DNA of 63,168 nucleotides, the filler included, from Octopus bimaculoides (lineage: Eukaryota): NCBI RefSeq assembly GCF_001194135.2. It is 5 parts of 5 records of this genome, joined end to end, with 100 filler letters (N's around TTAATTAATTAA, not from the genome) between each part and the next. Parts side by side here need not be neighbours in the genome. Positions count along the whole stretch, not along the records: positions 1 to 19,522 come from NC_069001.1; positions 19,623 to 40,691 come from NC_068985.1; positions 40,792 to 49,853 come from NC_068998.1; positions 49,954 to 52,378 come from NC_068982.1; positions 52,479 to 63,168 come from NC_068983.1. One strand, 5' to 3'. The notes beneath the pieces were generated by a model. That model was not told the origin of the DNA. It made no database searches and was given only the letters and a program-made list of their open reading frames with translations. A program made the position numbers and the translations under genes. Of the stretch, positions 13,431 through 62,963 are shown piece after piece. How positions within the stretch are numbered: position 1 is the stretch's first letter; every line of letters begins with the position of its first letter.

Positions 13431-14824
13431 CAACTCACAGGAACAGTAGAAGTTTATTGAGTCGGAACGTTGTGGAGTTTTTTGTATCGAAGTACGATAG
13501 TCTGAAAAAAATTATTTTATATTTCACGGTAGCCAACCAGGGGTGCAGGGTATGCGAGTAAGAATACTAGAGTTAAGGAAAGGAGTAGATAAGAGCCGGG
13601 CTACATATGTTTCATAGCGAGCGGATCCTCGGAGGTGGTAAATATCCAAGCGAAGTGTATACCGCAGGATACGCATCAGGCCAAGGATATCTTGATTAAG
13701 TGAAAGTTTATCTTGTCTCAAGGTGGTACATGTTAAACAAGGAAGGTTTGATCAGAATGTGTAGAGAATACAGTAAAAGAGGAGACTATAAACGTGGAGA
13801 GAAAACAGGAATGTAAAAAAGAAAACAGAAAAGAATAAAAGTAATAAAAAAATTAAGTGGGAGAGAGTTAAAGAATTTAAGTAAGGTCATTTGACCGGTA
13901 GTTCTTAATTGAAAACTGTGTGTGTGTGTTGGGTAGTGTTTATCTTTGTATAGGTATATTAGCTTTCATAAGCTGGTGCACATCTTTAATGAGCATTGCA
14001 ATACATTCTGTCTATGCATTGATTATTTCTGAAGCAATACTATACTTGCTGTAATCGCTAAGCTGAATATCCTTGACAGAACGGACGACAAGAATGGTTT
14101 TGAATTATAAGAGTAATCTGTCAGAGATTCTTCCTCATAATTCACCTTCAAGTAATTTCTTTTACACAAGGTTTTCAAGTAAGTACAAATAAACAGCATG
14201 TATTTGGATCAAATACGGCATCTGATAAATGTCATTGCTTTAGTCAGTCGTACGTAGATAAACGCACATGGACAAGCGGGTACACTTTTCAGATTATACT
14301 GTTGCAGTTTCCCGTGTCCTTGACCAGGGAGATTCAGTTACGCGGCTTAGGAATACTTAGACGAAAATGAGTAGCAGTAGATGGTGGGGAAGACTTCAAA
14401 AAATCTCCTATGATGTGCAGGTTTAACTAAGGACCGGAAAAATTAGCATACTTTGATATGCGTACGAGCGAAACAAAACTTTCTCACTTACGGTTTACAT
14501 GAATTTAAATATAATGGTTTCAAAGTTTGGTACAATGCCAACACTTTGCTGTGAGAGGCTAAGTCGATTAAATCAACTCCACTGCTCAGCTGGTTCTTAT
14601 TTTATCGAAAGGATGGAAAGCAAAATCGACTTCAGCGGAATTTGAACTTTGGACGTGAAGACTTAAGAAATACTGCTAATTACAATATATAATATTATAA
14701 AATACTCGAGCGCTCGTGTGTGTGTTTGTGTGCCTTATGTGTATCGATTGGGACATGCAATATATCCCAACAATTTACTGAAGTAATAAGAATAGATACA
14801 TAATATTTCATACAGAAAACATTA

Positions 14825-15050
14825 TTTATCTGTGCCTGTGCTTGTCCCCCCGCCCAACATCGCTTCACAACCGATGCTGGTGTGTTTACGTCCCCTTAAT
14901 CTAGCAATTCGGCAAAGGAGACCGATAGAATAAGTACTGGACTTACAAAGAATAAGTCTTGGGGTCAATTTGCTCGACCAAAGGCCGTGCTCCAGCATGA
15001 CCACCGTCAAATGACTGAAACAAGTAAAAGAGTAAAAGAATAAAAGAGTA
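14825..15050 (+). mobile_element. SINE family A, 3' half
   Basis: ...gctccagcatgaccaccgtcaaatgactgaaacaagtaaaagagtaaaagaat tail. Confidence 0.85.
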
Positions 15051-15804
15051 TCTAAAGTCAATTTTATTCTCAGCACTGAAATTTAGCACAATGGCGATTG
15101 TATGTTGGCTACTGTCTCTTTCCGTTATACGAGTGGCAATTTCACAAATTAGAGCAAGGTAATGCTCCCGTAATGTTTATTTAGTTTTAATTACCAATGA
15201 GTTCTATGTACTAAATTTCATTCATTACCATTAGAATTGTTTATTAGAACCTATTTTCTCGAAGCATATTTTTAAAACGTGTTTAAATGCTATATCATTC
15301 CCATTTGTTCATTCAGCATTCTTGTCTATGTCTGTGGAATGCATAATTTCTTGTTCCTTGCCCTATTTTGGTTGATTCACTACTTTGTTTATCGATTGTT
15401 CGTTGATCTGTCTTGTGATTGACATGTTAATTTTTGGGGGATTAATTTACACTGCATACGAAAATACAGACATATTATCACGGTACGATATTAAACACTC
15501 ACAGATCTTCGCATACATACCTGACGACTGACATGCGTGAAGTTTCAATACGAAATTTTATTTTCATTTCCTTTAAAACAATACACATTTACTTTTCCAT
15601 TACCGGTTAATAATTATCGCATCAGTTGCAATGTTGGCAGGTAAAATCTAAAATTCTTTGTCTCTCTGTACAAGTGCTTCTATTTCCTTAATTTATACTG
15701 CATACACAAGTACAGACATACTAAATACGGTACGTTATTAAACACACACACACACTCACACACGCATACACAGCTACACATACATATACATACCTGACGA
15801 CTTA

Positions 15805-15900
15805 ATTTTTTTATTAACCACGCTGGGTCGAAACACAGAGGGAACAACACGATGAGTGAAACACAAAAATGGAGGAAAAATAAAATCGAACGAAAAGAAT
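15805..15900 (-). mobile_element. Short tail fragment of the same L1/Tx1 family
   Basis: tttattaaccacgctgggtcgaaacacagaggg resembles tttattagccacaaggggctgaaaacagaggg at 53910. Confidence 0.4.
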
Positions 15901-16325
15901 GGTAATGATAAATCGAAAGGTGGAATGACGTCTACTCGAACCCCACACTCCACTTAACGTCATTGAACGTTTTCAGAAAAAAAAAAAATTGTCACGTGTT
16001 ATTTTATTTTACATTCTCCTTTTTGTGTGTTGCTTGTTTTATATACTTTGTGGACGACTGACGTGCGGGAAGTGTTACCGGATGATAATTACCGCAGAAG
16101 TTGCAAGGTAAGACAAAATTTTTTGTCTCTAATAATTATTGTGTCATTTACCGTTAAATTAGCAATTCCATACATGTGCTATTTCGTTCACGTGCTTATA
16201 TTTAATAGATTTACACAGCATACAAAAATACGGACATAATATATATTTACAATTGCTTACAAAAATAGAGATTAATGTATATTTTTTCTATGTTCATAAT
16301 TTTTTGTTTACAATATTGAAAAAAT

Positions 16326-17130
16326 ATGCCACCAAAGAAAAGACGTAATCCCTCCAGAAACACGTATAAAGCGAGGACGATTACAGAAAACAAAGGCGGG
16401 TGTCTCGACAGAGAAAGGAGACGAGACTTTCTCAAGCTCAGCAGATGCATGCCGCAGCACGTCAGTCTCAAGAGAGAAGGGAGATGAGATTTTCCCAGTA
16501 TCAGCTAAGGCATGCTGCAATACTTAATGCTGAATCATTCGAACAACCTTTAACACGCCAGATTAGACGGAGGTCCAATACAATAGCTCTCAGAAATAAA
16601 TCACATGCAAATTCGCTCTTCGCAACACCAGGAGCTGCTTTCAGATATGATCCATCCTATTCCTATAAAAATGATAATTCTGTACAAAATGGTGTGCTAC
16701 ACTCAAATTGTCGTTTCTGCAAAGCTTTCTAATTTCCAAATGAAACTAATGACATGTGCCGCTCGAGCGGTAAGGTAATATTGCAAGCACTACAATCTCC
16801 TTACCGTCTCCCATTGCAACCCATTTCTAGAATGTACTCATTTACCGAGAATATCTCCATTACACCTCTATTCATTTGACTGTTAACCATACGACGGGTC
16901 GTGTTAGATGTAGCGCTGACCGCCTCAAAGAAGAGTATTCCACTGAGCTTTTCGGCGGGGTGGAAAATTACATATCTTCACCCCCAACTTTCCATCATAG
17001 TTTAGCACTTGGAATCCTCCAATCCTCCGTTGTATTACATGTCGATTAATCGAATTAGACCATCATTTACTCCACAAATGTTTTGTCGTCAATGCTGCAC
17101 TTTTCCGATTCACCTGTTTCAACATAACTG

Positions 17131-17189
<59 letters not shown>

Positions 17190-17238
17190 AATAAACTATA
17201 CCATTTTAATCCCGAGCGATGCCGGGTGTCCCTGCTAG
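16326..17238 (+). mobile_element. Helitron derivative: RepHel N-terminal relic plus 3' terminus
   Basis: AAFRYDPSYSY...CRFCKAF*FPNETNDMCRSSGKVIL is the Helitron N-terminal Cys motif. The 3' end is a hairpin cccgagcgatgccggg followed by CTAG|t at 17235-17238. Confidence 0.85.
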
Positions 17239-17289
17239 TAGATATTAAACTTTAATCGAAAAAGATTTTTGTCAGGCTGGAACAATGCA

Positions 17290-17600
17290 GAAAATATGAT
17301 ATAAAGTAAGCTACAAAGTAAAACACGTAGGCTCTCGAGCGTACTTTGAAGTCATCACAGGTGTTATCGTGGGCTGTACACTATCAAATTGTCTCATGAA
17401 CAACTTCAGAATGTGCTTCAGTAAATGGTGGTGTATCCTACATTAAAAACAAACATCATCATAAAACCCCTAAAAAATGCCAGAACCAGGAATCTGAGGT
17501 AACCATCAGAGCTACTCAACGCATGGAGCCATACTCAGAATCCTGGAGAGAGTCTACAAGAAACTTAGAACATCCATAAACAAGAACAGCATGAATCAGT
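17290..17600 (+). mobile_element. Highly decayed LINE RT fragment
   Basis: FEVITGVIVGCTLSNCLM resembles the GVRQGCxLSP RT motif. Confidence 0.35.
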
Positions 17601-17795
17601 CTGGTTAGGGGAGCAACACCAATCTGCGCATGTCCTCCTCAGCTATTTCTTCTCCTTCCTCCTACCATCTCTTTCTCTTTGACATGCCCCGAAGAAAAGA
17701 TCATAGTTCTGAAATACAAAAATATTATGGAAAAACTATATTATTGTTAGTTTATTTTATATCTTCTCACAGTTTTCCAGTGTTGTAAAAGTCTG

Positions 17796-18027
17796 GGTAA
17801 TCTTCAAGTTTAGGGGGATAAAAAAAAATATTCAAGGGAAATAACTGAACGACTTACCAGTATTATCCGTTTTCTTCTAGCTGTTTATAAATTCCACCCT
17901 AACCCTAACGTCAATCAAATCACGTGTGATTTATTTATAAACAGATGTACGGAGAATACTGGTAAGACGTTCAGTTATTTCCCTTGAATATTTTTATTTT
18001 TTTATCCCCCTAAACTTGAAGATTACC
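17796..18027. mobile_element. Merlin-type MITE (232 bp)
   Basis: ~80-bp TIRs GGTAATCTTCAAGTTTAGGGGGAT... / ...ATCCCCCTAAACTTGAAGATTACC. 8-bp TSD aaagtctg / aaagtctc (7/8). The GGTAA terminus fits the Merlin GGNRM pattern. Confidence 0.75.
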
Positions 18028-19426
18028 AAAGTCTCTTTTAAGTAACGCCACACAATCCTTCACAAAAACTCCTCCATATTTGTGTGTGTGTGTGTGTGTG
18101 TATGTGTATCTGTGTATATGTACATTTATTTGTGTGTATCTGTGTGGGTAGGTGCTTCTCTCTGTGTGTGCTTATGTGTGTATGTGTATATTGTACGTGT
18201 GTATAATTGTTCAAACAAATAGGCAGAGTAAAAGTAATTAAACATTAATGACTCTGTATATTAAATCAGTGTATCACGTAATCGCGCACAAACATACCTG
18301 CTAAGACATTGTCAGACACAAATACACTTTCTCCAAATCCTTGTCTCCCCCTCTCGCACACACTCAATCCATGCATATGGAACAAGGACGTGTATGAAAC
18401 TCAGAGTGACAAGAATTTCAATCATGAGATAATACTTGTTGTACAACATATGCTGATATATATTTGTTTATGTACACATGATACACATCCATATACCTAC
18501 ACCCTCATATACACTCATATATTGATGTATACACACACATATACATATGTATACATAGATATAGAAGTATGCACACAAAGATCCACGTATGTGTATATCT
18601 ATGTGTACATTTGATGTATGTGCATCTCTATCTGCAAATTTGCATCTATATACGTATGTACTTGTGTATGCGTGCGAGTTTACTTGTGTGTGCATGTGTG
18701 TATTCGTGTGTGTGTGTTTGTGTCCATGTATTTATACTTGTATGCCTATGTGCAATGAATTTAAGCTTACACAATATGAACAACTCACAAGAAAAAACGT
18801 TACTTTTCTCCTGAAAAACACATTTCACTACGTTTTACTATTCTTTTCTTCGATTTTATGATAACTTGCTGTCATTTCTATTGAGTTGTTATTTCAGTAT
18901 TTTTTCTTTAAATATTCATCATTCAATACGCAGTTTTTAACAGTTTCTGTCTTTAATCTTTAAGACTTTTTCATTTTATTTATGAGGGATGTTTTTATAC
19001 CTTCTCCTTCAAACTTCTCATATTTCTATGAAACTAGTATTTCTGACTTATTTCCTTGTACGGTATATGTATTTTTTGGCTAGTGTAACTGTAATTTATG
19101 TACAGCAATTGTAATTTATATCCCTAGTATGTTTGTGTCTTTTATTATTGCTTTTCTCCTTCCATACGTAAAAATATACACACACATGTATCCCTCACAC
19201 ACACACAAACCCACACACACATACACTTATATATATATACAGCTATGTGTGTTTTTATACATGCATACATATATGCACGCCCAACGAATGTGTCTCGTTA
19301 CACGTTTGTAACGAATACTTTTGCTAGTATTATTCATACACACGTATACATATTTATACACATGGACATATAGATACACGTATATATAAAGAACCCTGCA
19401 CACATGCAAATATACATATATATATA

Positions 19427-19491
<65 letters not shown>

Positions 19492-19911
19492 ATGTACATA
19501 TATATCATATATATATATATATNNNNNNNNNNNNNNNNNNNNNNNNNNNNNNNNNNNNNNNNNNNNTTAATTAATTAANNNNNNNNNNNNNNNNNNNNNN
19601 NNNNNNNNNNNNNNNNNNNNNNCTAAAACCAAAATCCTAATAAGTAGGAAGGTAGATAAAACACAAACCCCTTCAGGTAGATAGCCCTGCTCAGTATGTA
19701 GAAAAGGAGTAGGTAGTAACTCTATAAGATGTACCCGGTGCAAGCTATGGACACATAAGAGGTGCAGCAACATCAAAGGCAGGTTAACTAGCAAGTTAGT
19801 TTTTGTTTGTGGCAGATGTTCAGGTGCAATAAAGACTGCAAACAAACAGGAAACAACTTCTATCTCATTCCAGGGTGAAAAACTAGAGGTAGTCGATAGC
19901 TTCCGCTATCA

Positions 19912-20048
19912 AACCCAGTACGCAACTAGTACTTAATAAGTCGACTCCAAAAGGATGAAAGGCGAAATTTGAACTCGGAACGTAAGAACGGGCGAAATAT
20001 CGCTAAGCATTTCGTCCGGCAAGTTAATGTTTCTGCCAGCTCACCACC
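19912..20048 (-). mobile_element. SINE family B, 3'-truncated, inside the RTE insertion
   Basis: Reverse complement aaggtggtgagctggcagaaac...gtactggg. Confidence 0.8.
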
Positions 20049-20410
20049 TTTCAAGCACAGCACATTGCCAAAGGACAAGAAACAGTCACCAAAGAATCGA
20101 GTAACCACACGCATGGGTAGAACAATTAAAATGCCTTCCCGTGTCCAGTGACAAGGAACTATGTAGGGTAGGATTCGTGACAGACGAACTGTAGACAGAA
20201 ACTTCGCAGTGGACGAGCTAGGAAGTTAGCCAGCAGCAAAACAAAAGGGACTTCCGGTAGGAGAAGGAAAACAAGTGAGTGTGAAACGAATCTGAGTGAA
20301 CTAAACAGAAATAACACTGACGACTTCAGCCCTGATGTACGTAAAGTAATAAACCTTTGATAAATGTATTCTCGTCTCCACTAGTTTGCGTATAGCTTAA
20401 CTAAGCTATA
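20049..20410 (+). mobile_element. 3' end of a Gypsy-like LTR retrotransposon (pol C-terminus plus ~250-bp LTR)
   Basis: TRMGRTIKMPSR* (TRxGRxxKxPxR-like), then TGTAG at 20162, AATAAA at 20348 and a terminal CTATA at 20410 (CTACA expected). Confidence 0.55.
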
Positions 20411-21414
20411 AGGTAGTAAATAGCTTCCGTTATCTAGGTGACCAATTTAGTAGCGAAGGTGGATGCTCCAAGAGCCTAGCCGTGAGAATAAGAATTGGCT
20501 GGGCAAAGTTCAGAGAGCTCCTACCTCTGCTGGCAACAAAGGCTTCTCCCTCGGAGTGAAAGGTAGATTGTATGATACCTGTGCACGAACGACTTTGATA
20601 CACGGCAGTGAAACAGGGGCTGTGACAGCCGAGGACATGCGTAGGCTTGAAAGAAATGAAGCCAGTATGCTTCACTGGATGTGCAATGTCAGTTTGAATG
20701 TACGACAGAGTGTAAGCATTTTGAGAGAAAAGTTGAGCATAAGAGGCATCAGATGTGGTGTGCAAGAGAGATGACCGTGCTTGTATGGTCATGTGATGCG
20801 TATGGACGAGGACAGCTGTGTAAAGAAGTGCCGATTTCTAACAGGGGAGGAAACCTATGGAAGGGGTTGACCCAGGAACACATAGGACGAGTTGGTGAAG
20901 CATGATCTTTGAACGTTGGGCCTTACAGAGGCAATTGCTCGTGACTGAGACCTTTGGCGATAAGCTATGCTTAAGAGACTTGTCAAGCCAGTGAAATCAT
21001 AGTCGTGGCCGATGCTGGTGTCACGTAATTTGCACGTAAAAAGCTCCTTTCAAGCGCTGGGCCTCACGGAGGCAAAGTGGCTGATGCCAGTGACACGTGA
21101 AAAGTTCCTTTCGAGTTTTGGGCTTCAGGGAGGCAATGACGAATGATCGAGACCTTGGCATTATGTCGTGCTAAGAAGACCCACAAAGCTAAGTAAAATA
21201 GTAGTTGTGACAGATACTGGTGTCACGCAAATGGCACTCCTGCTGATGGCATGTAGAAGCACCCATTATACTCTCAGGGTGGTTAGCATTAGGAAGAGCA
21301 TCCGGTCGTAGAAAACCATGCCAAATTAGACTACAGTCTGGTGTAGCCTTCCAGCTTGCCAGTCATAGCCAGACCGTCCAACCCATGCCAGCAGGAACAA
21401 CAGACGTTAAATGA

Positions 21415-21452
<38 letters not shown>

Positions 21453-21630
21453 TTTATATGTTTCAGCCTTGAGGTTGCGGCCATGCAGATATATATATGT
21501 GTGTGTGTGTGTATTAATTTCTGTTGGTGTGTATATATTCGTTTATCCAAAGTCCAAAAATAAAAATGGAAAAAGAGGAACAAGGAAAGTAAAACAAAAA
21601 ATGTAAAAACAAACAAAAAAAAAAATGTGG

Positions 21631-21895
21631 CGCAGGAGCGGCTGTGTGGAAAGAAGCTCGCTTCCCAAACACATGGTTCCGGGTTCAGTCCCACTGCATG
21701 GTGCCTTGGGCAAGAGTCTTCTACTATAGCCTCGGGCCGACCAAAGCCTTGTGATTGGATTTGGTTGTCGGAAACTGAAAGAAGCCCGTCGTATATATAT
21801 AGATGTATGTTTGTTTGTGTGTCTGTGTTTGTCCCCCGCCATCGCTTGACAACCGATGCTGGTGTGTTTACGTCCCCATAACTTAGCGATTCGGT
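21631..21895 (+). mobile_element. tRNA-derived SINE family A, ~600 bp upstream of CHCHD1
   Basis: ggagcggctgtgtgg...ggttcagtccc head and ccaaagccttgtg..ggaaactgaaagaagcccgtcg body. Confidence 0.88.
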
Positions 21896-22501
21896 AATAG
21901 CATAAAAATTTACCAAAAAAACATCAGTTCAACACAAGTTCGTTTCAGTTATTTTTAAAGCATAGTTTTAAATAAATGGCAGGATTTCAGATGACATTCT
22001 TTTGAAATTCTTTGTTAAAACAATGTCTTCGAATCTGTTGCCTGACTTTGAAGAATTTCCGCGGATGACGCGAATACAGAGTTATTTCCCTTAGATTGAA
22101 AACTTTTCGAGTAGCTTCTCTTTAATTACCATAAAGTGTTTAGTGTCGTACTTTTGTGAAATCAATTGAACACATTTGATTTTCAAGAAACTTATTAAAG
22201 TGCTATAATAAATATATATAAAGCATGGTATCGACAAAATTAGAAAACTTTCAATAATTTAACTGAACTCTATAATTTGCAAACACAAATGTATCTGTGT
22301 TTATATTGTGTAACTACGGTAATCGGAAATAGGTTTGAAGGTTGAAGCTTTTAAGCATGCTGTCTCTTGGAACTGAACCATCGTCTTCTTCATAATCTTG
22401 TCTGTGGTTTAGTCTGGGTTATATCCTACTTTAGGGGGAACTTCTGAGTGGTGTCTCGACCTGGTAGAAATAGCAATCACAACAACAGAATCGATCTTCA
22501 A

Positions 22502-22649
22502 ATGACGAGGCTTACAGAAGTATTAAATCGTGGCCGACGACCCGGTTACCATGGGAAATTCACCAATTACAAAGAAGTGTTTCCCTATAAAATGCCTTTG
22601 CCTCCGATCCTTAAAGACAGTGTATCGAATAAGAAAGACAAATCCAAAG
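22502..22649 (+). CDS. CHCHD1: CHCHD1/mS37 coding exon 1 (MTRLTEVLNRGRRPGYHGKFTNYKEVFPYKMPLPPILKDSVSNKKDKSK)
   Basis: ATG at 22502 and 148 nt open, ending AAAG|gtaag (phase 1). The basic N-terminus with the PxxLKxSVS motif matches the CHCHD1 family pattern and joins exon 2 in frame. Confidence 0.85.
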
Positions 22650-22744
22650 GTAAGATCTTTATTTAGACTCTCGTATCATAATTATGTCGAGAATCGCTTC
22701 TCTGAGTTCCTTCTTCCAGGAATAAAGCTGATCGAAGTATTGAT

Positions 22745-26470: not shown

Positions 26471-27098
26471 ATCAGCACTGGTAAAGAAACTATTTACAAC
26501 ATAATATTGCAAGGAGATTCTTTTTCTTTTTTTAAAGTTCATCACATGTCACCTTAAAACCCTTTTGCAAATCACCTCTGACTCACGTATGTTATAGGTC
26601 TGCCATCACTGCCTTGAAATAAGATGGGATAGTCATGAGTGGAATGCCTTTGGTTAAAAGTTTTCTCTATCAGGATTTACTTTTCAGCTTATTGACACCA
26701 ACTTCTATCTATAAATGGCTGCTTATTCATAATGATTCACAGTAAGGAAAGAAATCAGAGTTGCATGTTTTTTGTCTTTCTCAGGAAATCAGAGAGAATT
26801 GTGCCATTCATTGCAGTGGCACTTATTATAATCACCTTGTAGATATTATAAACTGTTTGGTGATGGTTGTTGTTATTGTTGCTCCAGGTTTGTTGTGACC
26901 CAGGAGATATTCATGTTATGACATTTCCATAATTTGAAACAATTTTCTGATTATTGCTTTCTACAAGTTGTGAATAATTGAGGATTTGGCTGCTATTTTT
27001 AAGAGGTCAAGCAACTGCACAGAGGCTTCCCCCGTTGCTTCATAAACTGTCGGGTTGGTCAAAACGATGGGATGCTAAATGCACAACAATACTTAAGG

Positions 27099-27512
27099 TC
27101 AGTTCTATATTTAAGAGATGAGGAATTATGTACATTATTTACGTTATTTACATTATTTACATTTGACGGATATTTGTCCTCATCTTGTTTGTTGTTAACA
27201 CAACGTTTCGGCTGATATACCCTCCAGCCTTCATCAAGTGTCTTGGGGAAATTTCAAACCCAGGTTCTCATTCCTAAGGTATGGCATAGTGGTTAAGAGC
27301 GTGGGCTACTAACCCCAAGATTCCAAGTTCGAGTCCAAACAGTGACCTGAATAATAATGATAATAATAATAATAATAACATCGAAAAATACCTTAGGAAT
27401 GAGAACCCAGGTTCGAAATTTCCCCCAAGACACCTCATGAAGGCTGGAGGGTAGTTCAGCCGAAACAAACAAGATGAGGAAAATTATCCGTCAAATGTAA
27501 ATAATGTAAATA
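27099..27512 (+). mobile_element. tRNA-headed, hammerhead-bearing non-autonomous retroelement with inverted tail and 11-bp TSD
   Basis: TSD aatacttaagg at 27088-27098 and 27513-27523. Inverted tail copy 27099-27281, A box TGGCATAGTGG 27282-27292, B box GTTCGAGTCC 27327-27336, forward tail 27388-27512 with an HHR motif at 27429-27466. Confidence 0.75.
27197..27242 (-). ncRNA. Minimal type I hammerhead motif with one core substitution (C3U)
   Basis: Minus strand GACAC-TTGATGA-A-GGCTG(GAGGGTATAT)CAGCC-GAAAC-GTT-GTGTT, with palindromic AACGTT at stem III. Confidence 0.6.
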
Positions 27513-27562
27513 AATACTTAAGGACCTCCACGAACTGATTTCAAATTTGTGTTAGTCTAGAG

Positions 27563-29760: not shown

Positions 29761-30594
29761 TTGACGGTAATTAATAATAAGTTGGTAACAAGCAATTCAT
29801 TTTTGTAAACTGAAATTTAAAAAAGAATAATCCTGTGTTATTTAATGAATGCATTTCAATGCTAATGATTGCCATCCTTGTTATTAGTCTGAGTTCGTTA
29901 GTATGTGAGAGGAGAGAGAGACAAATGGCTGGAAAGTTGCAGATGGGTTTAGAGGTGAATGTAATGAATGGACCAAGGGTAGGATAGGGGTGGGGGTTGA
30001 TGGTAAATATCAGAATGGGGAGGAAGGTGAAAGAATTGGCTCTGGAAAGGGGAGGTGGTTAGTGGCAGTACAGGAAGAGATGAGAGCAGCAGTATAATAA
30101 ACCTTTAGATAGATCAGAAAACAGAGATGTGGGAGAATGGGGTGAGGTGAGAGAGAGATGGATACAGTGACAGAGATGGAAGTCAGAGGTATGTAGTGAG
30201 TTGGTAATAAAGTTTGGGGAGGTTGTTGTTAGTAGATATAAGAGGGTGATAAGAATGATAACAGATAAGAGTGGGTGCTAAGATATTGTGTAGCAGTCCT
30301 AAGAAAAAAAGGGAGAGATAACTGAAGGCACAAAAAGAGGAATCATTGGGAATATAGTGAGAATGGATGATATTGAGAATGAAGGGTGGATTTTTTAATG
30401 GCAAGTAGTTCTAGAAAGAAGGGAAGGTAACAGGTGTCACGAAGGGAGATGTAATATGTGCATATTCTGCCCTTTGCTCTAGTTCAGCTGCTGATTGGGT
30501 GCAGGATCAAGGCCCAGTGAAGGTATTAGTCTAAACATAATGCATTTTAAGACCTCACATTTGCTGAGATAGACAGGGCTTCTCAAGAAGGGCA

Positions 30595-35328: not shown

Positions 35329-35842
35329 ATGATTCAGTGAAAGGTTTTTAACAAGTGAACAGCATGTGTGTAAGTATGATCTTTGCTCTTTCAGCTCCTG
35401 TTTTGCTCAACCCCTGTTGTTACATTAGAGGCAGGTTCAATTCTAGATCACAACAGCTGCAATGTTAAAGTGTTTATTTTGTAGGCACAAGCATGGTTGT
35501 GTTGCTATGATGTTTAGCTTGCAAATCATGTGGTTCCCGGCTCAATCCTAGCACACTCTATAAAATAGTTGGTGTTAGGGCACATCCCTCCATAGAAACT
35601 ATTGCAAAAAGGGAACATGTGAACAAGACATGCCATCTGCCCCTAACCTGTTTAGGAGGCCAGTAACTCTGTATAAGGACTAACTCAGGATGTGATGGCC
35701 TGTCTCACCTTTGCCAGCAGAGAAAAGTTAATGTAAAATTGTAGGTGAGGCGGGGGAGTTAAGTTTAAATTAGAAACATTTAAAAAATTCTACTTTTTTT
35801 ACCATCATGCTTTGTTGAAAAATCCTGCATGATTTGATCATT

Positions 35843-35947
35843 TTGAAAACATTGGTTCTCGTCCAATCACCGAAGTTAAGCAGCGTCGAGCCTAGTTAGT
35901 CCTTAGATGGGTGAGCGCTTGGGAAACCTAGGTGCTGTAAACGTCTT
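35843..35947 (+). pseudogene. 5S rRNA-derived pseudogene, 5'-truncated and diverged
   Basis: ttgaaaacattggttctcgtccaatcaccgaagttaagcagcgtcgagcctagttagtccttagatgggtgagcgcttgggaaacctaggtgctgtaaac aligns by eye to metazoan 5S rRNA from about nt 20 to the end, including box A (agttaagcagcgtcg) and box C (tagatgggtgagcgcttg). Confidence 0.85.
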
Positions 35948-52939: not shown

Positions 52940-52999
<60 letters not shown>

Positions 53000-53071: not shown

Positions 53072-53117
<46 letters not shown>

Positions 53118-53905
53118 TGTGTGTGTGCGTGTTTACATATATATATGTATATATGCTCGCATATATACGTGTTTGTGTGTATGCGTGAAATAGATCTAAT
53201 GGTAGTATATGTCAGTAATTTTGATATGAGAACTAATTGTATTAACTATAAAGTCTTTCAACACAGAATATTGACAAGATGTGAGACATTATGCACATAA
53301 GTTTATCTAGCTTTACCGGTCTCTCATGAAGTATTAAAGTTCCACTAATGATACGTCAAATAAAATAAATCTAACTGGTTAGTTCTCATCTCATTTGCTG
53401 TATGCACCAAATGCGCAATCGAAATAAATTAACGCCGAATGAAGTCTGTTAGTAACACTAAACTTTGGCTCTACTCTATCACTGTATGTGTGATTTAGAT
53501 GAGTAAAGAAGTTTCTTTATTAGAAATAGCTATAGGCTAAGGCTGTCCGCTTCAGTAAAAGTTAGCTTCGAGTTCAGTTACTCTGTGTGACATTTTGGGC
53601 AAGTGTCTTTTACTATAGCTCCGAGCGGATGAATTTATGAATTTGGTAGATAGATAGACATACATATAGACAGAAAGAGAGACAAACAGACAAATAAATA
53701 GATATATAGATATATGGACAGAGAGATAGATAGATAGTGAGAAAGACGGATAAATAGATAGATAGATAAATAGACAGACAGGCAGACATACCGATAGATG
53801 GAGAGATAGATAGTATATAAATAGACATAGATAGATAGATAGATACATACATACATACATACATACATAGACAGGCAGGCAGACAGACAGACATAGAGAT
53901 AGATG

Positions 53906-54166
53906 TTTCTTTATTAGCCACAAGGGGCTGAAAACAGAGGGTACAAAATACAATGTAAAGCTTTTCTTTTCGAAAAAAAAAAAGAGAACTATACAATTCC
54001 GATCAAAAGGGATCGTGAAAAAAAGAAGAAACGATCAAAGTGGATTGCCTATCTGAAGACATTAAAAACGTAAAAAGAAAGATTAGGTTTATCAGTTGAA
54101 AGAAAAACCCACGGAAAAGATCACGGTAACCGCAGGCACGGAGGGAAAGACACATGAGTACAAAGT

Positions 54167-54204
<38 letters not shown>

Positions 54205-54270
54205 NNNNNNNNNNNNNNNNNNNNNNNNNNNNNNNNNNNNNNNNNNNNNNNNNNNNNCTCTCTCCCTCTC

Positions 54271-54312
<42 letters not shown>

Positions 54313-55075
54313 TCTTTTCTCGATTTACCGGATCATGCTCAAAGCGGTTTCGTCATTTGCAAGTGCCATCTTTACTACATTCACCCACCTCTTATTGAAA
54401 CTTACACGAGACAAAATTTGCCTCTGTATTCTCACTTTCCTTTTCAAGTGGTACTTGAAAACGTTAATGCGCGATTGGCCAGAGAGGAATAAGTTTGTCT
54501 CTAAACCTTTCGCTCGAGTCCACCAAACACATTCTTTCACCATGGCCACCAGTACCATGAGCACTACCTTGACTTCCTGGTGAGGGAAGGTGGCAGAGCG
54601 ATTTTCACGACAAACGAACTTATCCCACACATGACAGCAGCCATTCGGCATATGCCCACAGGTCCGAAATGATTGGACACTGAACGAGTGTGTGCATAAC
54701 GGTTCCGTCGCTCTGACCGTATCTCGGGCATGTCGGTCTGGTGTGTCTCGAACCGTGCCTGTAGAGCTTATCCCAAACAGGTAATGCTTCTCGATGGCAC
54801 TGCCAGGCCAGGGATCTCTGGTGATTGTCCATAGGTCCTGGCTCGAAAGTTGTCCCGAGCAGGCGAGTCAGGTGTTCTTAGTCGACGCCCAGATTGTGCC
54901 AGAGAACGTCGTCGCACCTCCCGTCCATTAATCCTCCATAGAACGCCTTTACGGAATTGCATTCGCACAAATTTGGTTCCAGACGGTAGAGTTGCTTGAA
55001 AGCAAGTCGACACACGTGGTGCCATTTGCCTGCAGATTCTATGATTTAATGTCATTTAACAGGTAGCCTTGTTTC
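53906..55075 (-). mobile_element. L1/Tx1-clade LINE 3' fragment
   Basis: Minus strand LAWQCHREALPVWDKLYRHG...PTCPRYGQSDGTVMHTLVQCP (zf-RVT-like CCHC). 3' end at ...aataaagaaac. Interrupted by (CT)n and a gap. Confidence 0.8.
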
Positions 55076-57761
55076 CAAGGCGGCCCCAAGCTACGTACAT
55101 TGATACTACCTATTTTGAGCATGTTCCTATCGAGAGTTGTGTTTTACACAAGAAAGGAAGACGAAAGAGAAAGAGAGAGAGTCACTGTCCGACAGTTGTT
55201 TGTCCTTCTCCTCACAGTATTCTCCCAGAATGTTTCTGTATAGTTATTTAGACAGGAATTTTTGAAGTCACCCTACTGCATCCGGGTAGAGACATTTCAG
55301 TGTACTGTGTGTGTGTTCTGTGTTATGTGTATGATTTTAATGTGGTGTGGTATTGTTATACGTGGGGTGATTCTTTGTTTTGGTATCATTTTCTGCCATC
55401 TTGGTGTCTGACGTAATGTATGCCATTAGGTCTAGATTGTCGAATCCAGTGTCAATCTAAGCTCCTACTGAGGAATTTTTCACACGTTAATTATATTTCA
55501 AGGTAGTATGGATAAATTGCTATCTGATTCGCATGACAATTCTGATATCTGTTATGGTTTTTATTTACTTTTTTTCTACATTGTTACATAATATAAGCAT
55601 GGAATGTAAACAAAAATACTAATTGCATCATGATAATGATAATTTCGTCAGTACTTCAATATAATACTGGCAAAAAAAAAGATCCCTATTTTCAATATTA
55701 TACTGATTTCTTCATTTAGTCTCGGAAACAAATCATTAAACGGTGGGCTCAATCGATTCAATAAATCTCAGTCAGTAACTAATGCATTATTTTATCGATC
55801 CCGCCGCTGAGAATACGTACCAAAAATAACATCAATGGGATTTAGGCACAAAACAAAATAAGTTCAAAACATTTCTGCAAATACTTTGCCCCAGGCTTAA
55901 ATTATTTCACTCACTAATCCAAAGCTATTAAATCTAGCTTCAGAATTGTTTCTAATATAGTTACAAGGCAAAAGAGTTAGGACAGAAAGTGAGTTAGTCG
56001 ATTAAATCGACTCTGTTTCTTGTCTGGTACTAAACTCTTTTTATCTCAAAAGTATGAATAGATTCGAAGTCAGAAGCAAATCAGACGGTGCAAACACCGC
56101 GAGGTATTTTGTGCCTTGCCAATCACTCGCAATTTATTTAATATTCTAATATACGGAGCTGTTTTACGATGTTGTATATAGAAAAAATTGCTTCACAGAG
56201 TCATATTTTCATATTCGACTCTCAACAGCAGCTTGTTTTTTTTCCTTTCTAGGTCCCGCAAAATTTCATGGAAGATGAAAGCATGCTTTCATGATAAATA
56301 GTGTGCGCTACAGTTTTACTAACCCTCCTATAGTTCTGAACATTCTGACTACTTCGTAAATGAGAGAGAGAAGAGAGAGGCACGCAGAAACACAGACAGA
56401 GACGGAAAAATGACGGGGAAGGCTTTAGACAGTCAGAAAAATAGAAACAGAGAGAGCAAAAGAGAAAGATAATCAATTCCTAGTTAAGACTATTAATAGA
56501 AAAATGTCCTCAGACAAATCTACTGTGAAAGATTACAAAAGATGAATTAACTCTTTGGTGGGAATTGAACTCAGTGTGTTGAGTTTATTTATAAACCACA
56601 GTAGTGCATTTAATCTCCTACCTTAACGACTCGATTCACTGTATAAGTTTCTAAACTCATACACAGATCTCAAAAACAAACAAAAGGTCATTAGATCGTG
56701 TGATCAAGAGCAAACTGTATATTACATCATAGTTTTTGAACATACACGGAAGGCTTGGAGCTCCAAAACATCAACTACAAGTTGAAAGTTGTGACTACTT
56801 AAATCACTTGAGAATTTCAAATATTTGTATTCATATATAAGACTTGAAGAAAAGAAACATGCTGAAAATAGGAACCGGTCCAGTCTGTGAACCTTGAGTC
56901 ATACTTTCAATTGGAATATGAAAATTTATATTCATAATTACTGTATGCGATAAACTGATACAATTTCAGTACAAATTAGGCTATTACACTTTATTTCAAT
57001 GTGAGATAGGCTGTTAAACAATTGTAAAATGAAATAAGGCTGTTACATAAGACAGCATAATGAAATTATATTGTAACACAAAGGCATTTTAAGGGCATCA
57101 TAAAGTAAATTAATGAGCAATAAACCAGTTAACCAAAATGATGAACCAAACAGCTTTTAAACTGAATCAAGTTTAATACATAATACTGAAGTTATTTCTT
57201 CATTATTTCTTTGTTTTTAATTTTCAGTTATTTCCTCATCCTTGGCAGACTCTCTAGAATTTAGTGCAAAATGTATTGCCGTGGTATTTGCTTGCCTATT
57301 ATATTAAGTTTCTCTGATCAAATAATTCAACTGAGCAATTTTTACTTTCATTCTTCTCTTCTAGTCAGGTTCTGAGATTTCCTTAATTGATTAAACCCTT
57401 CTCTTAAAACATGTGGCCGTGTCTTTGTGTTAGGAATTATAATAATTGTTAGAATATGATTGTGGGACAATGCCTCGATAGAAATAAGTATGGATTTTAC
57501 GTGTATGGCATGCACCCGATGCTCTAACAATCAGGACCCTCTCCGTGTAAATTAACTCTTCACTCCACATGCTTTCCAAAAAAAAATTCCATTTTATATT
57601 CTCTGTAGAACCTTCTATTCTTTTACAACTTATCCCGTTTGATGTAAATATTTCACAAGGTGGTGTTTATTTGATCAATATATTTTAAACCATATTTTCC
57701 CAACTTCTCTGTGTATTTACCATGATCATTCATCTTCCAATTTACTGACTCTCAGAATTTT

Positions 57762-58962
57762 CTTCTATGTACTGGACCCAGTTTTTTTTTTCTAATACCT
57801 TTTATAATATTCCTTTCATTATGACATTTGCATGACCGGCCTTCCCTTTTGTAGCTCTCTCTCTCTTTCAATAATCGTATCCTTTATGCGTGTATATATA
57901 TACTCAATAATAATAAAGGGTAAAATTAAATAATTAATTCATAATTAATAATTTTACCAAGTAGGTCGGTATGTTAAAATAACTTTAATCGGTAACCTTA
58001 TACAAAAATTCTATAATTATAAGCATAATTATAATTAGGGTTGAGCAAATTGCTTCACGATATACCGAAATTTAGAAATATCAGTTAAAAAGTATTCCTC
58101 TACCATATGATATCTCCCAGACAGCAATACTCTTATTTTACGTAGGTAAAGAGAAAACATAACGAATCTACACGACTTTGATTAACCACATTTTTTTCTC
58201 TTTATCTACGTAAAATAAGAGTATTGCTGTCTGGGAGATATCTTATGATAGAGAAATACTTTTTAACTGATATTTCTACTTCTTCACCCCTTCCTTGCTG
58301 TCTGGGAGATATCTTATGATAGAGAAATACTTTTTAACTGATATTTCTACTTCTTCACCCCTTCCTTCCTGTATTAAGGCTTGACCTCTTAACCCTACAC
58401 ACATCTCTCACTTGATTTGGGCTATCCTTTGAGTAAACAACACACAGAATACTCCGGATACGATATAATATATATCCACCTTCGCTATTACAATTATCTC
58501 CGGAAAATACCCACAAGGATTCTTTGCATGGATGTTTACTGCTGGAATGGAGCTATACTCTAAGTACTGTTTCTTCTTTGTTCTTTTTTCTGCGCATCGC
58601 TCTCACTTCTTACTACAAATCTCCTCTTATAGATGTAATAATCCATTATTGTACTATTGCCGTCTCCGATGAAGGGATACATTGGATTTTCCCTGAAACA
58701 GCTGTAAGACATTATCCATAAAATATAATTCTAACTTTGCTATTGGTCTCTTCATCCTTTTCTTTATTTATACATACATTAATTATGAATTAATTATTTA
58801 ATTTTACCCTTTATTATTATTGAGTATATATATACACGCATAAAGGATACGATTATTGAAAGAGAGAGAGCTACAAAAGGGAAGGCCGGTCATGCAAATC
58901 TCATAATGAAAGGAATGTTATAAAAGATATTAGAAAAAAAAACTGGGTCCAGTACATAGAAG
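57762..58962 (+). mobile_element. 1.2-kb element with ~185-bp inverted terminal arms, nested hairpin, tandem duplication and HHR
   Basis: Arms 57762-57949 and 58778-58962 differ by 3 substitutions and 2 small indels. Inner inverted repeat 58073-58157/58194-58278, 71-bp tandem duplication 58224-58366, HHR at 58662-58710. Confidence 0.75.
58662..58710 (+). ncRNA. Minimal type I hammerhead motif with one core substitution (U4C)
   Basis: GTCT-CCGATGA-AGGGA(TACATTGGATTT)TCCCT-GAAAC-AGCT-GTA-AGAC: stems I and II pair perfectly, palindromic stem III ACAGCTGT, GUA triplet. Confidence 0.7.
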
Positions 58963-59163
58963 TTAAAGTCTGTCATACCGGCCATGATGAAATACCACAA
59001 GGTATAGAAAATATGAAATACCACAAGGAATATAAATAAAACATAAAAAACGGACAGTGTTGGAACTCTTTTAAACAAAATAATATATTCCTCTATACAC
59101 AATCATACAAAACCCCCTTTTTTTGGATTTATTTTTACTCGCATATATATACATATATATATA

Positions 59164-60461
59164 CGAAGGGGTATACAGAAGAAACCGGAATTTTGCAATG
59201 TTATATTATTCAGTTAGTTTTACATATTTACACTTTTATCGCCTACAAAGTATTCTCCGTTTGAAACAATGCAGCAGCCCAGATGCGTTTTCCACTGTTC
59301 GAAGCAGTTCTAGAACTCTTGCGAAGTGATGTTTTTTAACGCCTCGTCTTTTTTCTTCACCTCTTCTACATCTGCAAACCTTTTTCTTTGAAGAACTTTT
59401 TTCATTCGGCGGGTGGTGGTGGGGACACAAAATAAGTTACAGGGAACAAGACTGAGTGAATGGGGAGGATGGATGAACGGGGTCAAGCCATTTTTGGTCA
59501 AAAACTGTCTCATATCTAAGGCGGTGTGCGAAGGTAAATTGCCGTGATAAAACCACCACTCTTCACTTTGAGACCCGTCGGGGGATTTTCATCTCGCCGC
59601 GTCTCGCAAATGCTTCAGGACTGTCAAGTAAAATGTTTGTGTAACAGTTTGACTAGAAGGAACAACTTCTGTTTGGATAATTCCTTTTGCATGAATGAAA
59701 CCAATCAGTATCGTCTTGATATTAGACTTCACTTGACGCAATGGAGTGCGTGGTGACATAGAATGCTTCCAATGGCTTGATAGTGGCTTCATTTCCAGGG
59801 CGCAACCGTCGTAGCATTAGCGTTCGTCACCAGTGATGACCTTCAGAAAAAGGTTCGGATCAACTTCCAACTGTTTTTTTCAGTTGATGACACTTATGAC
59901 TGCTCTTGATCTTCCGAGAGCAAGTGAGACACACATTTTGTTGCAACTCTTTTCATTCGCAATCTCTGGCTTAAAATTCGTTGAGAGGAGCTCCAGGATA
60001 TACCAGTCATATCAACAAGTTCATCAGTTGTTCAGCGAACGTCCTCCAGGATCAGTTCATGAATTTCCGTGATGTTTTCATTCGTTCGGGAGGTCGACGG
60101 TCGGCCTCAAGGAGGTTGGTCTTCAAGCGACAAGTAACCATTCCTGATGTGTGAATGCCACTGGTAAACAAGACATTTGCTCGTGGTAGCGCCCTTGTAA
60201 GCTTTTGAAGCATGAGAAATGCTTCAGCGCTATTTTCCCTTGCAGGAAACAGCAGATCGCTGGTTCTTCGTTTCCGCCATCGCAAAGAACGGCAAACAAG
60301 AGAGAAGCAATGCAAAACTAAGATGCACTATGTGACAGTACGACATAGCCGAACGACGCTGGTCACCAGACTGATGCCCAAGGGTCGTAAATAGCGGTGG
60401 AAGCCTGAATTACAACGGACTTGTCTCACAGAGAACGTTTCAAGTTTCTTTTGGCTACCGC

Positions 60462-60465
<4 letters not shown>
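59164..60465 (-). mobile_element. Full-length (1.3 kb) decayed mariner element
   Basis: ta|cgaaggggtatacagaagaaac ... gtttcttttggctaccgcctca|ta. Minus-strand relics MAETKNQRSA, VITGDE, HPPHSLSLVPCNLF (YSPDLAPCD-like). Confidence 0.9.
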
Positions 60466-60518
<53 letters not shown>

Positions 60519-61394
60519 CCAATTAGTTCGAATACAGTAATTAAATTAAATCAATTTAATTTCAGTTTTCATATCGAGACTGGTTAATTGGGTATTTCCC
60601 CAGAGAAGAATTTCCTAAAAGGGAGTTACATTTTAATGTGTTGGTTGACCTACGACAGACTCGGATGTGTGCGTTTTAGAATATGTGCGTCGTTTAAAAC
60701 ACCGCTATTTTCATATATATGTACATATAAACAAATACGTCTGACATATTTGTGTGCGTGCATGCATAATACATGATGGTTTTTCTCTATTTTCATCCTT
60801 TTGTCATTCATAAATATTTTAAATATTTATATATATCAATGCAAAACTAGGATGCTAGCATCCCTTAAAGGATTATAGGTACTTGACACAATTATATATA
60901 TATATATTATATGTCCAGTTATTAATTTTATTGTATTAGTGTAACATTGTCCGTTTTTTCCGTCCTTGTTTTTGCATATATTCGCTGCTTTCTTCCAAAC
61001 TTTAACCATTTTGAAACTTTCTCTCGTCATGTATTTACTAGAATGTTTCTCTCACTGCACCCATTTCTGAACACTTTCCTCTACGTTATTCTGATTCCGC
61101 GCCCCACTCTGATATTTAGCACAGTCAAAACCCACTCCAATTACATCCAGCAGGATATGAGTTGTGGTTCCACTCCATTGAACAACATTTCTACACCGCC
61201 TCAGACTTATTTTCTTCTCTCCTTTTCACCACCCATCTCTTTCCTCGTTCCTCTCTCTTGTGATCAATATCTGTATGTCCGAAACGACAAAATCACTTTT
61301 CCTTCCGTTTCTCAAACGGAAATACACCCCCCCCACACACACACACACGCAATGATATGCATATGTGTGTGTATTTGTGTATGTGCATACAATA

Positions 61395-62590
61395 CTGGCT
61401 AGAAAAAATCCCAAATGACATACCTGACCGAATCGGAAAAGAATTCATCGTTGAAGGCATAAAATCCAACCTACAGAACAACTTCCTCAACTTCAACGAG
61501 AACACTTATAGACAAAAGTTGGGCATGATGTTGGGAGCGAGAGTAGCCACTACCTTTGTCAACCTTGTCTTGGCATACTTGGAAGTTCAAATATACGAGA
61601 ACGCTAGATTGAAATTTGGAGACAACTTCCACAAATACTTACTCACCGACAGGAAACGCTATTTGGATGACTGTTTCATTCTTTTCCCACATAAACTTGA
61701 ACAACTCTTAAAATTTAAAAACTTAATCAACCCCATTAACCACAGTATCCAATTCACAATAGGATACAGCTACAAGCAACTACCCTTCCTGAGCAACTAA
61801 TCATACGAAGAGAACCTGAAATTGAAACTGACATCTTCTTCAGACCGACGGACTCAAAACAATATCTTCTATTCACCTCCTGCCACACTAAACATACTAA
61901 AATATATAGAGAAGAATTTGCATGATTGCATCAAAATCCGAAACCAGGGAAAAGCGACTCAAAGAACTTAAAAACACATTACTTGATAGAAAGTACCCGG
62001 CTAGTCTAATCAAAAACGGAATGGAGCGTGACAAAAATGATAGACATCGGAAAACAATAAAACATCATGACACTCGTGAAACTTTAGCTTACGTATCAAC
62101 ACATAATCCGAGGAACATAGAAGCAAACAGCATCATCCACTAATAACATACCCCTCCTACTGAATGACGTGCGAATGAAAAAGGCACTGGAAGCACATAG
62201 CATTATTAAAAACAAGAGAGAACCGAAATCCCTAAAAACGTTATTCACCAGGGCCAAATTAGCCACCAAAACTACAATACCACTAGTCAAATAGTGCAAC
62301 CGCCATAACTGCGGCACTTGCCTCTTCCTCTTAGAGTCTCAACATACAAATTTATGTCACGTCACACTTTTTCCATAATAAATAACTTCACATGTGCTTC
62401 AAAACACCATACAATAACACCATACAAACACCAGTTGATGACGTCAACTAACCCTAGACCATTGAGATTTTACAAATACCAGTTGAAGACATCACCTAAG
62501 ACAAGACCAATGAAATTTTACTTCCGATCAAAACGGAACTTCAGCAAATACAACAGAATGGATTTGTCGGGTTGCCAGTATGGCCAATGA
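61395..62590 (+). mobile_element. Penelope-like element, decayed RT/thumb and start of the GIY-YIG linker
   Basis: Translated pieces YRQKLGMMLGARVATTFVNLVLAYLE, RYLDDCF, IQFT...LPFL, TDIFFRPTDSKQYLLFTSCH, RLKELKNTLLDRKYP, YVSTHNP, CNRHNCGTC. Multiple frameshifts and stops. Confidence 0.9.
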
Positions 62591-62963
62591 AAGGACACGC
62601 AATATATATTTGGTGTTTACTTCAGTTCTATTTCATATTAATTGTATTTCGGCTAGAGTTCTTTTGTCACACTTCTGTGATTTCATCAGTAAATTAAAAA
62701 AAAGAAAGAAAGCGAATGACCACTGATGAATACCCAGAAGTGTGACGAAAGAACTCTGAAGCAAGTGAACACCAAATGCGTTTGCTTTCATTGGCTAAAC
62801 TGGCAACATGGCCATCCCCAAATAGAACAATATATATATATATATATATTATAAGTGCCATATTAGGACTAGGATCGATGCAATGAACTCACTCCCGTCC
62901 CCGAAACTGGTACCCGTATGACGAAATTTGAAAACCATGTATGTACATATATATATATATATA

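What the first reader, a model, noticed from the sequence alone, without database searches (positions are those of the whole stretch)
13602..62790. Recurrent [inverted tail]-[HHR]-[tail] architecture: candidate family of non-autonomous ribozyme retroelements
Seen: four sequence-unrelated loci share one layout on the HHR-sense strand, an inverted copy of the downstream tail placed upstream of an HHR. They are 27099-27512, 38563-38912, 57762-58962 and ~62600-62790 beside the PLE RT relic. Further decayed HHR-like cores lie at 13602-13632 (-; CCGAGGA...GAAACATATGTA), 29846-29890 (-) and ~39405-39440 (-); the first two follow CT-rich tracts. Established: PLEs carry HHRs in their pseudo-LTRs and often form inverted-pLTR insertions. 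Inference: this genome hosts several small HHR-bearing elements mobilised in trans by PLE RT, one of which has captured a Pol III promoter. Seven to nine HHR-like motifs in 63 kb would imply a very large genomic population.
Basis: partly seen in the sequence, partly recalled or inferred. Interest (0 to 1): 0.75.

Follow-up and report, generated by a model that had tools for sequence, protein, structure and literature searches.

The report
Penelope stubs, retrozymes, tRNA-headed Penelope

Summary
The inverted arms are real, and six of the seven sites belong to six unrelated high-copy hammerhead (HHR) families; 29846-29890 is unsupported. The 'non-autonomous family' reading mostly fails. Families f1 (27099), f3 (58348), f4 (62571) and f5 (13356) run into Penelope-like (PLE) GIY-YIG ORFs in other copies, so these are 5'-truncated PLE stubs. 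An inverted 5' copy, one-sided tail and 11-14 bp target duplication are published PLE anatomy. Only f2 (38563) and f6 (39325) are ORF-less 300-350 nt circular units (non-LTR retrozymes). At 57762-58962 the arms are not the element's tail, and the RT relic is not f4's parent. The notable feature is f1: its tRNA-like head follows the ORF in at least 25 of 29 ORF-anchored copies; 14 of 18 unbiased copies that reach the head end at its 5' edge; and the ORF is depleted of TTTT. This points to a Pol III promoter that spawns SINE-like copies and may read the coding element (untested). This scan noted both that feature and a LINE targeting f2 on other DNA before (unreviewed); my literature searches found no paper on it.

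The parts
27099..27512 (+). f1 insertion: short copy of the pLTR of an ORF-bearing Penelope/Poseidon-type PLE, head-to-head with an inverted copy
   Evidence: 4360 first-look candidates, 40 scored, 85-90% identity; ORF-linked copies
27088..27098 (+). 11-bp target-site duplication, left copy (right copy 27513-27523)
27099..27281 (-). f1 inverted arm carrying the 22-nt outer tail and an HHR whose core (27237) has one mismatch
27282..27349 (+). tRNA-like head with A box (from 27282) and B box (27327-27336); predicted Pol III promoter
   Evidence: sequence; weak Rfam tRNA match in a relative, 13.3 bits, E 6.1, model 8-63; 5' ends pile up here
27350..27512 (+). AAT run, ORF start region, HHR (core 27434-27440 mutated, cleavage site deleted in this copy) and inner 3' end
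38563..38983 (-). f2 insertion: ORF-less retrozyme-like element (unit about 350 nt, circularly permuted); direct arm 38563-38771, inverted arm about 38780-38983
   Evidence: 2854 candidates; period 348-355 in 5 of 29 copies; extent
38722..38764 (-). type I HHR with intact core
   Evidence: strict descriptor, 0 mismatches
39325..39615 (-). f6: one full turn of a roughly 300-nt ORF-less retrozyme-like unit with short terminal redundancy; decayed HHR at about 39395-39440; no inverted arm
   Evidence: 1291 candidates; period 298 and 304 in 2 of 14 copies
13356..13909 (-). f5: 3' stub of an ORF-bearing PLE; decayed HHR 13599-13682 with long stem II
   Evidence: 1668 candidates; GIY-YIG remnant upstream in 2 of the 2 longest of 14 relatives translated
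58348..58778 (+). f3: 5'-truncated 3' UTR/pLTR of an ORF-bearing PLE; HHR 58662-58710
   Evidence: 1109 candidates; GIY-YIG about 950 nt upstream in the 4 longest of 29 relatives
57753..57949 (.). inverted duplicate of 58778-58972: about 140 nt single-copy flank plus about 57 nt end of another repeat; not f3 sequence
57893..58278 (.). another repeat (f8), itself in inverted arrangement; one relative carries an HHR-like motif
   Evidence: 4 relatives inspected
62571..62853 (+). f4: head-to-head pLTR pair of an ORF-bearing PLE (inverted arm 62571-62690, direct arm 62696-62853); both HHRs decayed
   Evidence: 967 candidates; RT-thumb-GIY-YIG upstream in 3 relatives translated
61386..62545 (+). 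f7: separate PLE relic (RT, thumb, GIY-YIG with about 400 nt deleted, 3' UTR) into which f4 inserted

Best explanation
The sites are independent insertions of six unrelated hammerhead-bearing families, four of them 5'-truncated ends of protein-coding Penelope-like retroelements and two of them ORF-less 300-350 nt units that are likely carried by Penelope enzymes, and one coding family has a tRNA-derived leader that likely acts as a Pol III promoter. Insertion (inferred): the PLE endonuclease nicks both strands about 11-14 nt apart. Each nick primes reverse transcription of element RNA, one at the outer and one at the inner start site. The two cDNAs join at their far ends, giving [inverted 3' piece][direct 3' piece] with the tail on one side only and a target duplication outside. 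In f1 the A/B-box leader likely starts transcripts about 13 nt before the A box. These would yield 260-280 nt SINE-like RNAs that the parent's RT copies in large numbers. Because the ORF starts just downstream and is nearly free of TTTT, Pol III may also read the coding element. Shown: family membership, ORF linkage, inverted arms, tails, target duplications, 5'-end pile-up, T-run depletion. Inferred: priming model, polymerase, trans-mobilisation of f2 and f6, ribozyme activity.
For: ORF linkage: f1 (RVT_1 E 8.5e-8; homologues with RVT_1 and PF26215); f3 and f4; f5; shared GIY-YIG residues. Variable 5' truncation out to more than 1.4 kb in f3 and f4. Upstream inverted copy in 19/29, 12/29, 5/29, 6/26, 4/14, 2/14. 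Tail on one side only in at least 20 of 24 f1 copies with both ends. Target duplication of 9 nt or more in 19 of 50 f1 copies versus 1% of mismatched flanks, mode 11-14. f2 and f6: circular permutation, no PLE ORF contiguous in 43 copies, circular fold z -5.0 and -2.3. f1 promoter: A or B box after the ORF in 25 of 29 copies; 14 of 18 unbiased copies end at -14..+7, against 1 in the preceding 60 nt (p below 1e-11); TTTT in 5 of 58 short copies; in the ORF 0-0.36 per kb versus 1.4-2.1 expected, no shared site; 1 observed versus 6.1 (P 0.004) or 3.7 (P 0.063) under two codon nulls. Literature: inverted 5' copy and one-sided tail are typical; a PLE protein nicks and extends both strands from two start sites.
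Against: No transcript evidence for any start site or polymerase. A 12-nt palindrome sits exactly at the f1 5' pile-up, and palindromes at pLTR 5' ends were described and read as self-priming, so the pile-up need not mark a start site. T-run depletion is not significant under the codon-permutation null (P 0.063) or triplet shuffles, and f4, which has no tRNA head, is also fairly low (0.77 per kb). The tRNA match is weak (E 6.1). No autonomous partner was found for f2 or f6, and only the top 14-29 copies of each were seen. 31 of 50 f1 copies show no duplication of 9 nt or more. Pfam GIY-YIG scores are below cut-off for f3, f4 and f7, and absent for f1 and f5. No full intact element was recovered. 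Individual HHR windows do not fold better than shuffles.
Confidence: 0.82

Rival explanations
1. One reading: one class of small non-autonomous ribozyme retroelements defined by an inverted tail, moved in trans by PLE RT.
For: f2 and f6 are ORF-less units; most f1 copies are short, with 3 of 29 unbiased copies reaching beyond the leader.
Against: f1, f3, f4 and f5 join PLE ORFs; the inversion is in a third of copies and absent at f6 in the window; the arms at f3 are not element sequence.
Confidence: 0.1
2. The tRNA-like head in f1 is a passenger (an old SINE remnant in the 3' UTR); the element is Pol II-transcribed and short copies end there because the palindrome stops RT or drives self-priming.
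For: Palindrome at the pile-up; palindromes at pLTR 5' ends in rotifer PLEs; Drosophila Penelope has a LINE-like internal promoter (abstract); weak tRNA score.
Against: A and B boxes are kept in most copies; RT would be expected to stall on entering structure, yet only 1 of 18 ends lies inside the head; TTTT depletion through pLTR and ORF.
Confidence: 0.25
3. The inverted arms arise by self-priming fold-back on an antisense template, or by later repair, rather than by priming from both target strands.
For: Proposed in print for head-to-head junction palindromes; the f3 site has a flank-derived inverted duplication that needs template switching.
Against: One-sided tail in at least 20 of 24 copies and duplications outside both arms fit two priming events; both strands are extended in vitro.
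Confidence: 0.3

Closest known systems
Endonuclease-positive Penelope-like elements (Penelope/Poseidon, Neptune; PAc of Anolis, PMC11167929; rotifer Penelope, PMC3846280; Craig 2021, 10.1101/2021.04.23.441226)
   Same: RT plus C-terminal GIY-YIG, HHR in the pLTR overlapping the ORF start, heavy 5' truncation, inverted 5' copy, one-sided tail, short target duplication, partial tandems.
   Different: f1 has a tRNA-derived A/B-box leader in its pLTR and a fixed 5' end for short copies; described PLE promoters are Pol II-type.
Metazoan non-LTR retrozymes (PMC7229834; 10.64898/2026.07.22.740005)
   Same: f2 and f6: ORF-less 300-350 nt units, type I HHR, GC under 45%, circular permutation, self-paired circle, proposed PLE dependence.
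   Different: Mostly dispersed monomers or partial dimers here; f2 often has PLE-type inverted arms; circular RNA not shown; no pLTR partner identified.
TRIMp3 (Cassandra, Helenus, Ajax; PMC10886601) and tRNA-derived SINEs
   Same: Small-RNA-derived Pol III promoter inside a terminal repeat; short abundant copies.
   Different: Those are non-autonomous; here the promoter sits in the coding element itself, and the 3' end is a PLE pLTR with an HHR.
Target-specific Tx1-clade LINEs (Tx1L in Tx1D, Keno, Tx1-Mar; PMC4494074)
   Same: A zf-RVT LINE inserts at one position of another repeat with a duplication of about 17 bp.
   Different: The target is an HHR repeat (f2), about 30 nt before the ribozyme; Tx1 membership was not tested by a tree.

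Membership tests
EN+ Penelope-like element (f1, f3, f4, f5) | RT followed by C-terminal GIY-YIG in one ORF | tested here: met
   f1 RT, thumb and GIY-YIG in order; f4 RT, thumb and GIY-YIG; for f3 and f5 only the GIY-YIG end was reached; Pfam GIY-YIG below cut-off
EN+ Penelope-like element (f1, f3, f4, f5) | Type I HHR in the pLTR | tested here: met
   strict motif in 7/29, 21/29, 12/26, 5/14 relatives
EN+ Penelope-like element (f1, f3, f4, f5) | Inverted 5'-truncated copy, one-sided tail, short target duplication | tested here: met
   duplications measured for f1 only
EN+ Penelope-like element (f1, f3, f4, f5) | Partial tandem with pLTR running into the ORF N-terminus | tested here: met
   f1 only: L225 and L226
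Poseidon or Neptune clade | RT phylogeny | not tested
   Clade labels are recalled from motif patterns and come from no call; no tree was built
Non-LTR retrozyme (f2, f6) | 150-450 nt ORF-less unit with type I HHR, low GC, repeated or circularly permuted | tested here: met
   periods 348-355 and 298-304, GC 0.38 and 0.37, HHR 18/29 and 8/14
Non-LTR retrozyme (f2, f6) | Two or more consecutive HHR-bearing units | tested here: inconclusive
   only partial dimers among the copies seen
Non-LTR retrozyme (f2, f6) | Self-cleaving, circular RNA in vivo | not testable with these tools
   needs cleavage assay and circular-RNA detection
tRNA-derived SINE (short f1 copies) | tRNA head with A and B boxes at a fixed 5' end, no internal T run | tested here: met
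tRNA-derived SINE (short f1 copies) | Head foreign to the partner; separate non-autonomous lineage | tested here: not met
   the head is present in at least 25 of 29 ORF-anchored copies
tRNA-derived SINE (short f1 copies) | Transcription by Pol III | not testable with these tools
   only assembled contigs of guessed RNA runs were available

The most novel reading that the evidence does not exclude
f1 is an autonomous, protein-coding Penelope-like retrotransposon transcribed by RNA polymerase III from a tRNA-derived promoter in its own pLTR: one promoter makes both the 2.5-3 kb coding RNA, kept free of T-run terminators, and tens of thousands of SINE-like ribozyme copies.
Probability: 0.35. Interest if true: 0.8.

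Novelty: new variant of a known kind. Interest (0 to 1): 0.5.

Why it matters
The layout itself is ordinary PLE anatomy and should not be named as a new family. If f1 is Pol III-driven, it would be a coding retroelement that uses a SINE-type promoter, it would show one route by which SINE-like elements arise from within their partner, and it would raise the question of how an uncapped RNA with a ribozyme inside its first codons is translated. The many short copies with defined ends also give a natural data set for the open question of how PLE inverted insertions form.

Tried and rejected
Rfam: no hammerhead family in the window at E up to 1 or in 20 loci at gathering score; ARAGORN found no tRNA. 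The repeat finder was swamped by microsatellites. 29846-29890 rejected. MFE folding of seven single HHR windows gave no significant z-scores. Two 5'-end mapping scripts over-extended or mis-parsed the AAT run and were replaced. The relic as parent of f4 rejected; its 62430-62530 repeats are 3' UTR repeats, and no strict HHR was found in 19 relatives. Expression: no RNA holder on record; contigs of four guessed-RNA runs cover the element but cannot show start, strand or level, so they were not used. PDB gave only weak RT hits. Triplet-shuffle control for T runs was not significant. Literature searches for a tRNA- or Pol III-driven PLE and for a Tx1 LINE targeting HHR repeats listed no such paper; the library lacks most subscription papers and Repbase, and no supplements were read.
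Full report
Setting. The window is a pack of five stretches from a 2.34 Gb genome in 145,327 contigs. The finding's sites lie in three stretches on three contigs. Each genome search scored only its best 40 candidates and I took 6-30 loci from each, so family samples lean toward copies most like the query, and candidate numbers are not copy numbers.

Observation. All four inverted pairs exist and are unrelated to each other. A strict type I HHR descriptor gives 2 hits in the window against 0 in each of 12 shuffles, and 3 against 1 in 12 with one mismatch; a looser version gives 5 against 0-3. Six sites belong to abundant families: f1 27099-27512 (4360 candidates), f2 38563-38983 (2854), f3 58348-58778 (1109), f4 62571-62853 (967), f5 13356-13909 (1668) and f6 39325-39615 (1291). 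Their relatives keep an intact HHR in 7/29, 18/29, 21/29, 12/26, 5/14 and 8/14 copies, with different stems around the same core (three f4 relatives were dropped for lack of the anchor). In the window only the f2 and f3 motifs are intact. The site at 29846-29890 is neither a repeat nor a descriptor match.

Four families are ends of coding PLEs. In f1 the RT, thumb and GIY-YIG run straight into the tRNA-like head. Two loci continue past the tail into the ORF N-terminus, which begins just before the HHR, as in the anole element PAc. The RT matches RVT_1, and its 36 database homologues mostly carry RVT_1 with PF26215. The four longest f3 relatives, three f4 relatives and the two longest f5 relatives that I translated reach GIY-YIG remnants, with shared catalytic-motif residues. 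Pfam scores for these are below cut-off or absent; the Atlas places f4 among clusters where 13-18% carry GIY-YIG. The 5' ends of f3 and f4 are spread over more than 1.4 kb, as for truncated retroelements. Clade names (Poseidon for f1, Neptune for the others) are recalled, not tested.

Two families are ORF-less. The sequence upstream of the f2 HHR repeats the sequence downstream, with period 348-355 nt in 5 of 29 copies; f6 has period 298 and 304 in 2 of 14. Several f6 copies, including the window's, are one turn long with a short terminal redundancy. Both fold as circles better than 40 shuffles (z -5.0 and -2.3). No PLE ORF adjoins them in 43 copies. They fit non-LTR retrozymes (passages), which a 2026 preprint derives from PLEs (abstract, introduction and part of methods). 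No partner was identified.

The layout is known PLE anatomy. An upstream inverted copy occurs in 19/29, 12/29, 5/29, 6/26, 4/14 and 2/14 relatives, and in 35 of 58 f1 copies, including the window's, by a more sensitive test. In f1 the outer 22-nt tail is on one side only in at least 20 of 24 copies with both ends; the other four look one-sided in the raw flanks. Duplications of 9 nt or more flank 19 of 50 gap-free copies versus 1% of mismatched pairs. Craig 2021 (passages) and Arkhipova 2013 (passages) describe this structure. Frangieh 2024 (main text) shows nicking and extension of both strands from two start sites that bound the tail. I infer two priming events joined head to head; self-priming on an antisense template is the published rival.

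Two loci were misread. At 57762-58962, f3 homology ends at about 58778. The arms are about 140 nt found only here plus the end of another repeat, f8, so this is an inverted duplication of flanking DNA. At 62600-62790 the f4 pair sits in the 3' UTR of a separate PLE relic, f7, at a 10-nt match to the f4 end. The relic's protein does not hit f4 ORFs.

Population. In flanks of loci fetched for other families, f1 occurs 8 times in 466 kb (about 40,000; 95% range 17,000-79,000), f2 twice in 546 kb, f6 once in 679 kb, and f3-f5 not at all in about 650-680 kb each. Strict HHRs occur 5 times in 544 kb versus 0 in 3 shuffles (7,000-50,000 genome-wide), four of them from further families. Thousands of such motifs per genome are already reported (passages). 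The window overstates the density about 4-5 fold.

The f1 promoter. With a query from the ORF end, an A box followed in 23 of 29 copies, a B box in 23, and at least one in 25. Of the other four, one has the head after an assembly gap and three have partial or deleted heads. With a query from the 3' end only, 18 of 29 copies reached the head (one called by eye). Of these, 14 ended between -14 and +7 relative to the A box, 1 inside the head and 3 further upstream (p 1e-21, or 3e-12 with a conservative hazard). The head weakly matches the tRNA model (E 6.1). TTTT occurs in 5 of 58 short copies. In about 31 kb of ORF copies it occurs 7 times, never at a shared site. Over 833 codons, 1 was seen versus 6.1 (P 0.004) or 3.7 (P 0.063) expected, with Phe TTT/TTC 7/16 against 111/83 for other T/C pairs; smaller samples of f3, f4 and f7 showed no significant depletion. 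Against: a palindrome at the pile-up, mixed nulls, a lowish T-run rate in f4, and no RNA evidence. The closest published analogues are non-autonomous TRIMp3 elements (passages); Drosophila Penelope has a LINE-like internal promoter (abstract). Searches listed no tRNA-headed PLE; Repbase and supplements were not seen. Earlier unreviewed notes of this scan report the same feature on other DNA; I had planned the T-run test before reading them.

Side finding. A zf-RVT LINE ends at one position about 31 nt before the f2 HHR. Of 29 LINE 3' ends, 19 are followed by f2 or a related repeat, 11 of them at exactly that position. A duplication of about 17 bp at the 5' junction was seen in 2 of 17 long stretches; in most others no upstream target half was found within 8 kb. 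Earlier notes report this too. Tx1 LINEs that target other transposons are known (passages).

Verdict. Four PLE stubs and two retrozymes share a known insertion footprint. The tRNA-headed coding PLE is a new variant worth testing.

Noticed in passing
L121-L125, L256-L296 (relatives of window 38563-38983): A zf-RVT LINE inserts at a fixed site about 31 nt upstream of the f2 HHR: 19 of 29 LINE 3' ends are followed by f2-like sequence, 11 at the exact site; duplication of about 17 bp in 2 of 17 long stretches; one tandem pair separated by a single target piece (L265).
   Followed up: yes
L257, L258, L266-L270, L280, L282: Diverged f2-like subfamilies with different HHR stems are also targets of the same LINE group.
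   Followed up: partly
L285, L289, L296: LINE-plus-f2 copies with an inverted f2 piece upstream; LINE sequence may be carried as cargo by f2 retrotransposition.
   Followed up: partly
window 57893-58278; L300, L302: A further repeat family (f8) in inverted arrangement; one relative has an HHR-like motif.
   Followed up: partly
window 61386-62545: Separate PLE relic (f7, 342 candidates) with about 400 nt of GIY-YIG deleted; no strict HHR found in 19 relatives within the 1.5 kb flanks held.
   Followed up: partly
L008, L089, L096, L170, L085, L302: Further unrelated type I HHR-like motifs in flanking DNA, so more families exist than the six here.
   Followed up: no
window 35825-35943: 5S rRNA-like sequence (56.8 bits), diverged and single; probably a pseudogene or SINE head.
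   Followed up: no
window 2493-2632/2821-2961 and 17796-18027: Two more inverted repeats without an HHR match; the second contains two telomere-like hexamers near its centre.
   Followed up: partly
window 54325-55055 (-): LINE ORF2 C-terminal fragment with a zinc-knuckle-like motif, resembling the LINE that targets f2.
   Followed up: no
window 59310-60330: Mariner-like transposase fragments (label recalled from the translated motifs, not tested).
   Followed up: no
L103, L112, L100 versus other f4 copies: L100 lacks about 370 nt of the f4 3' UTR between the ORF end and the HHR region; L095 is a 689-nt direct tandem.
   Followed up: no
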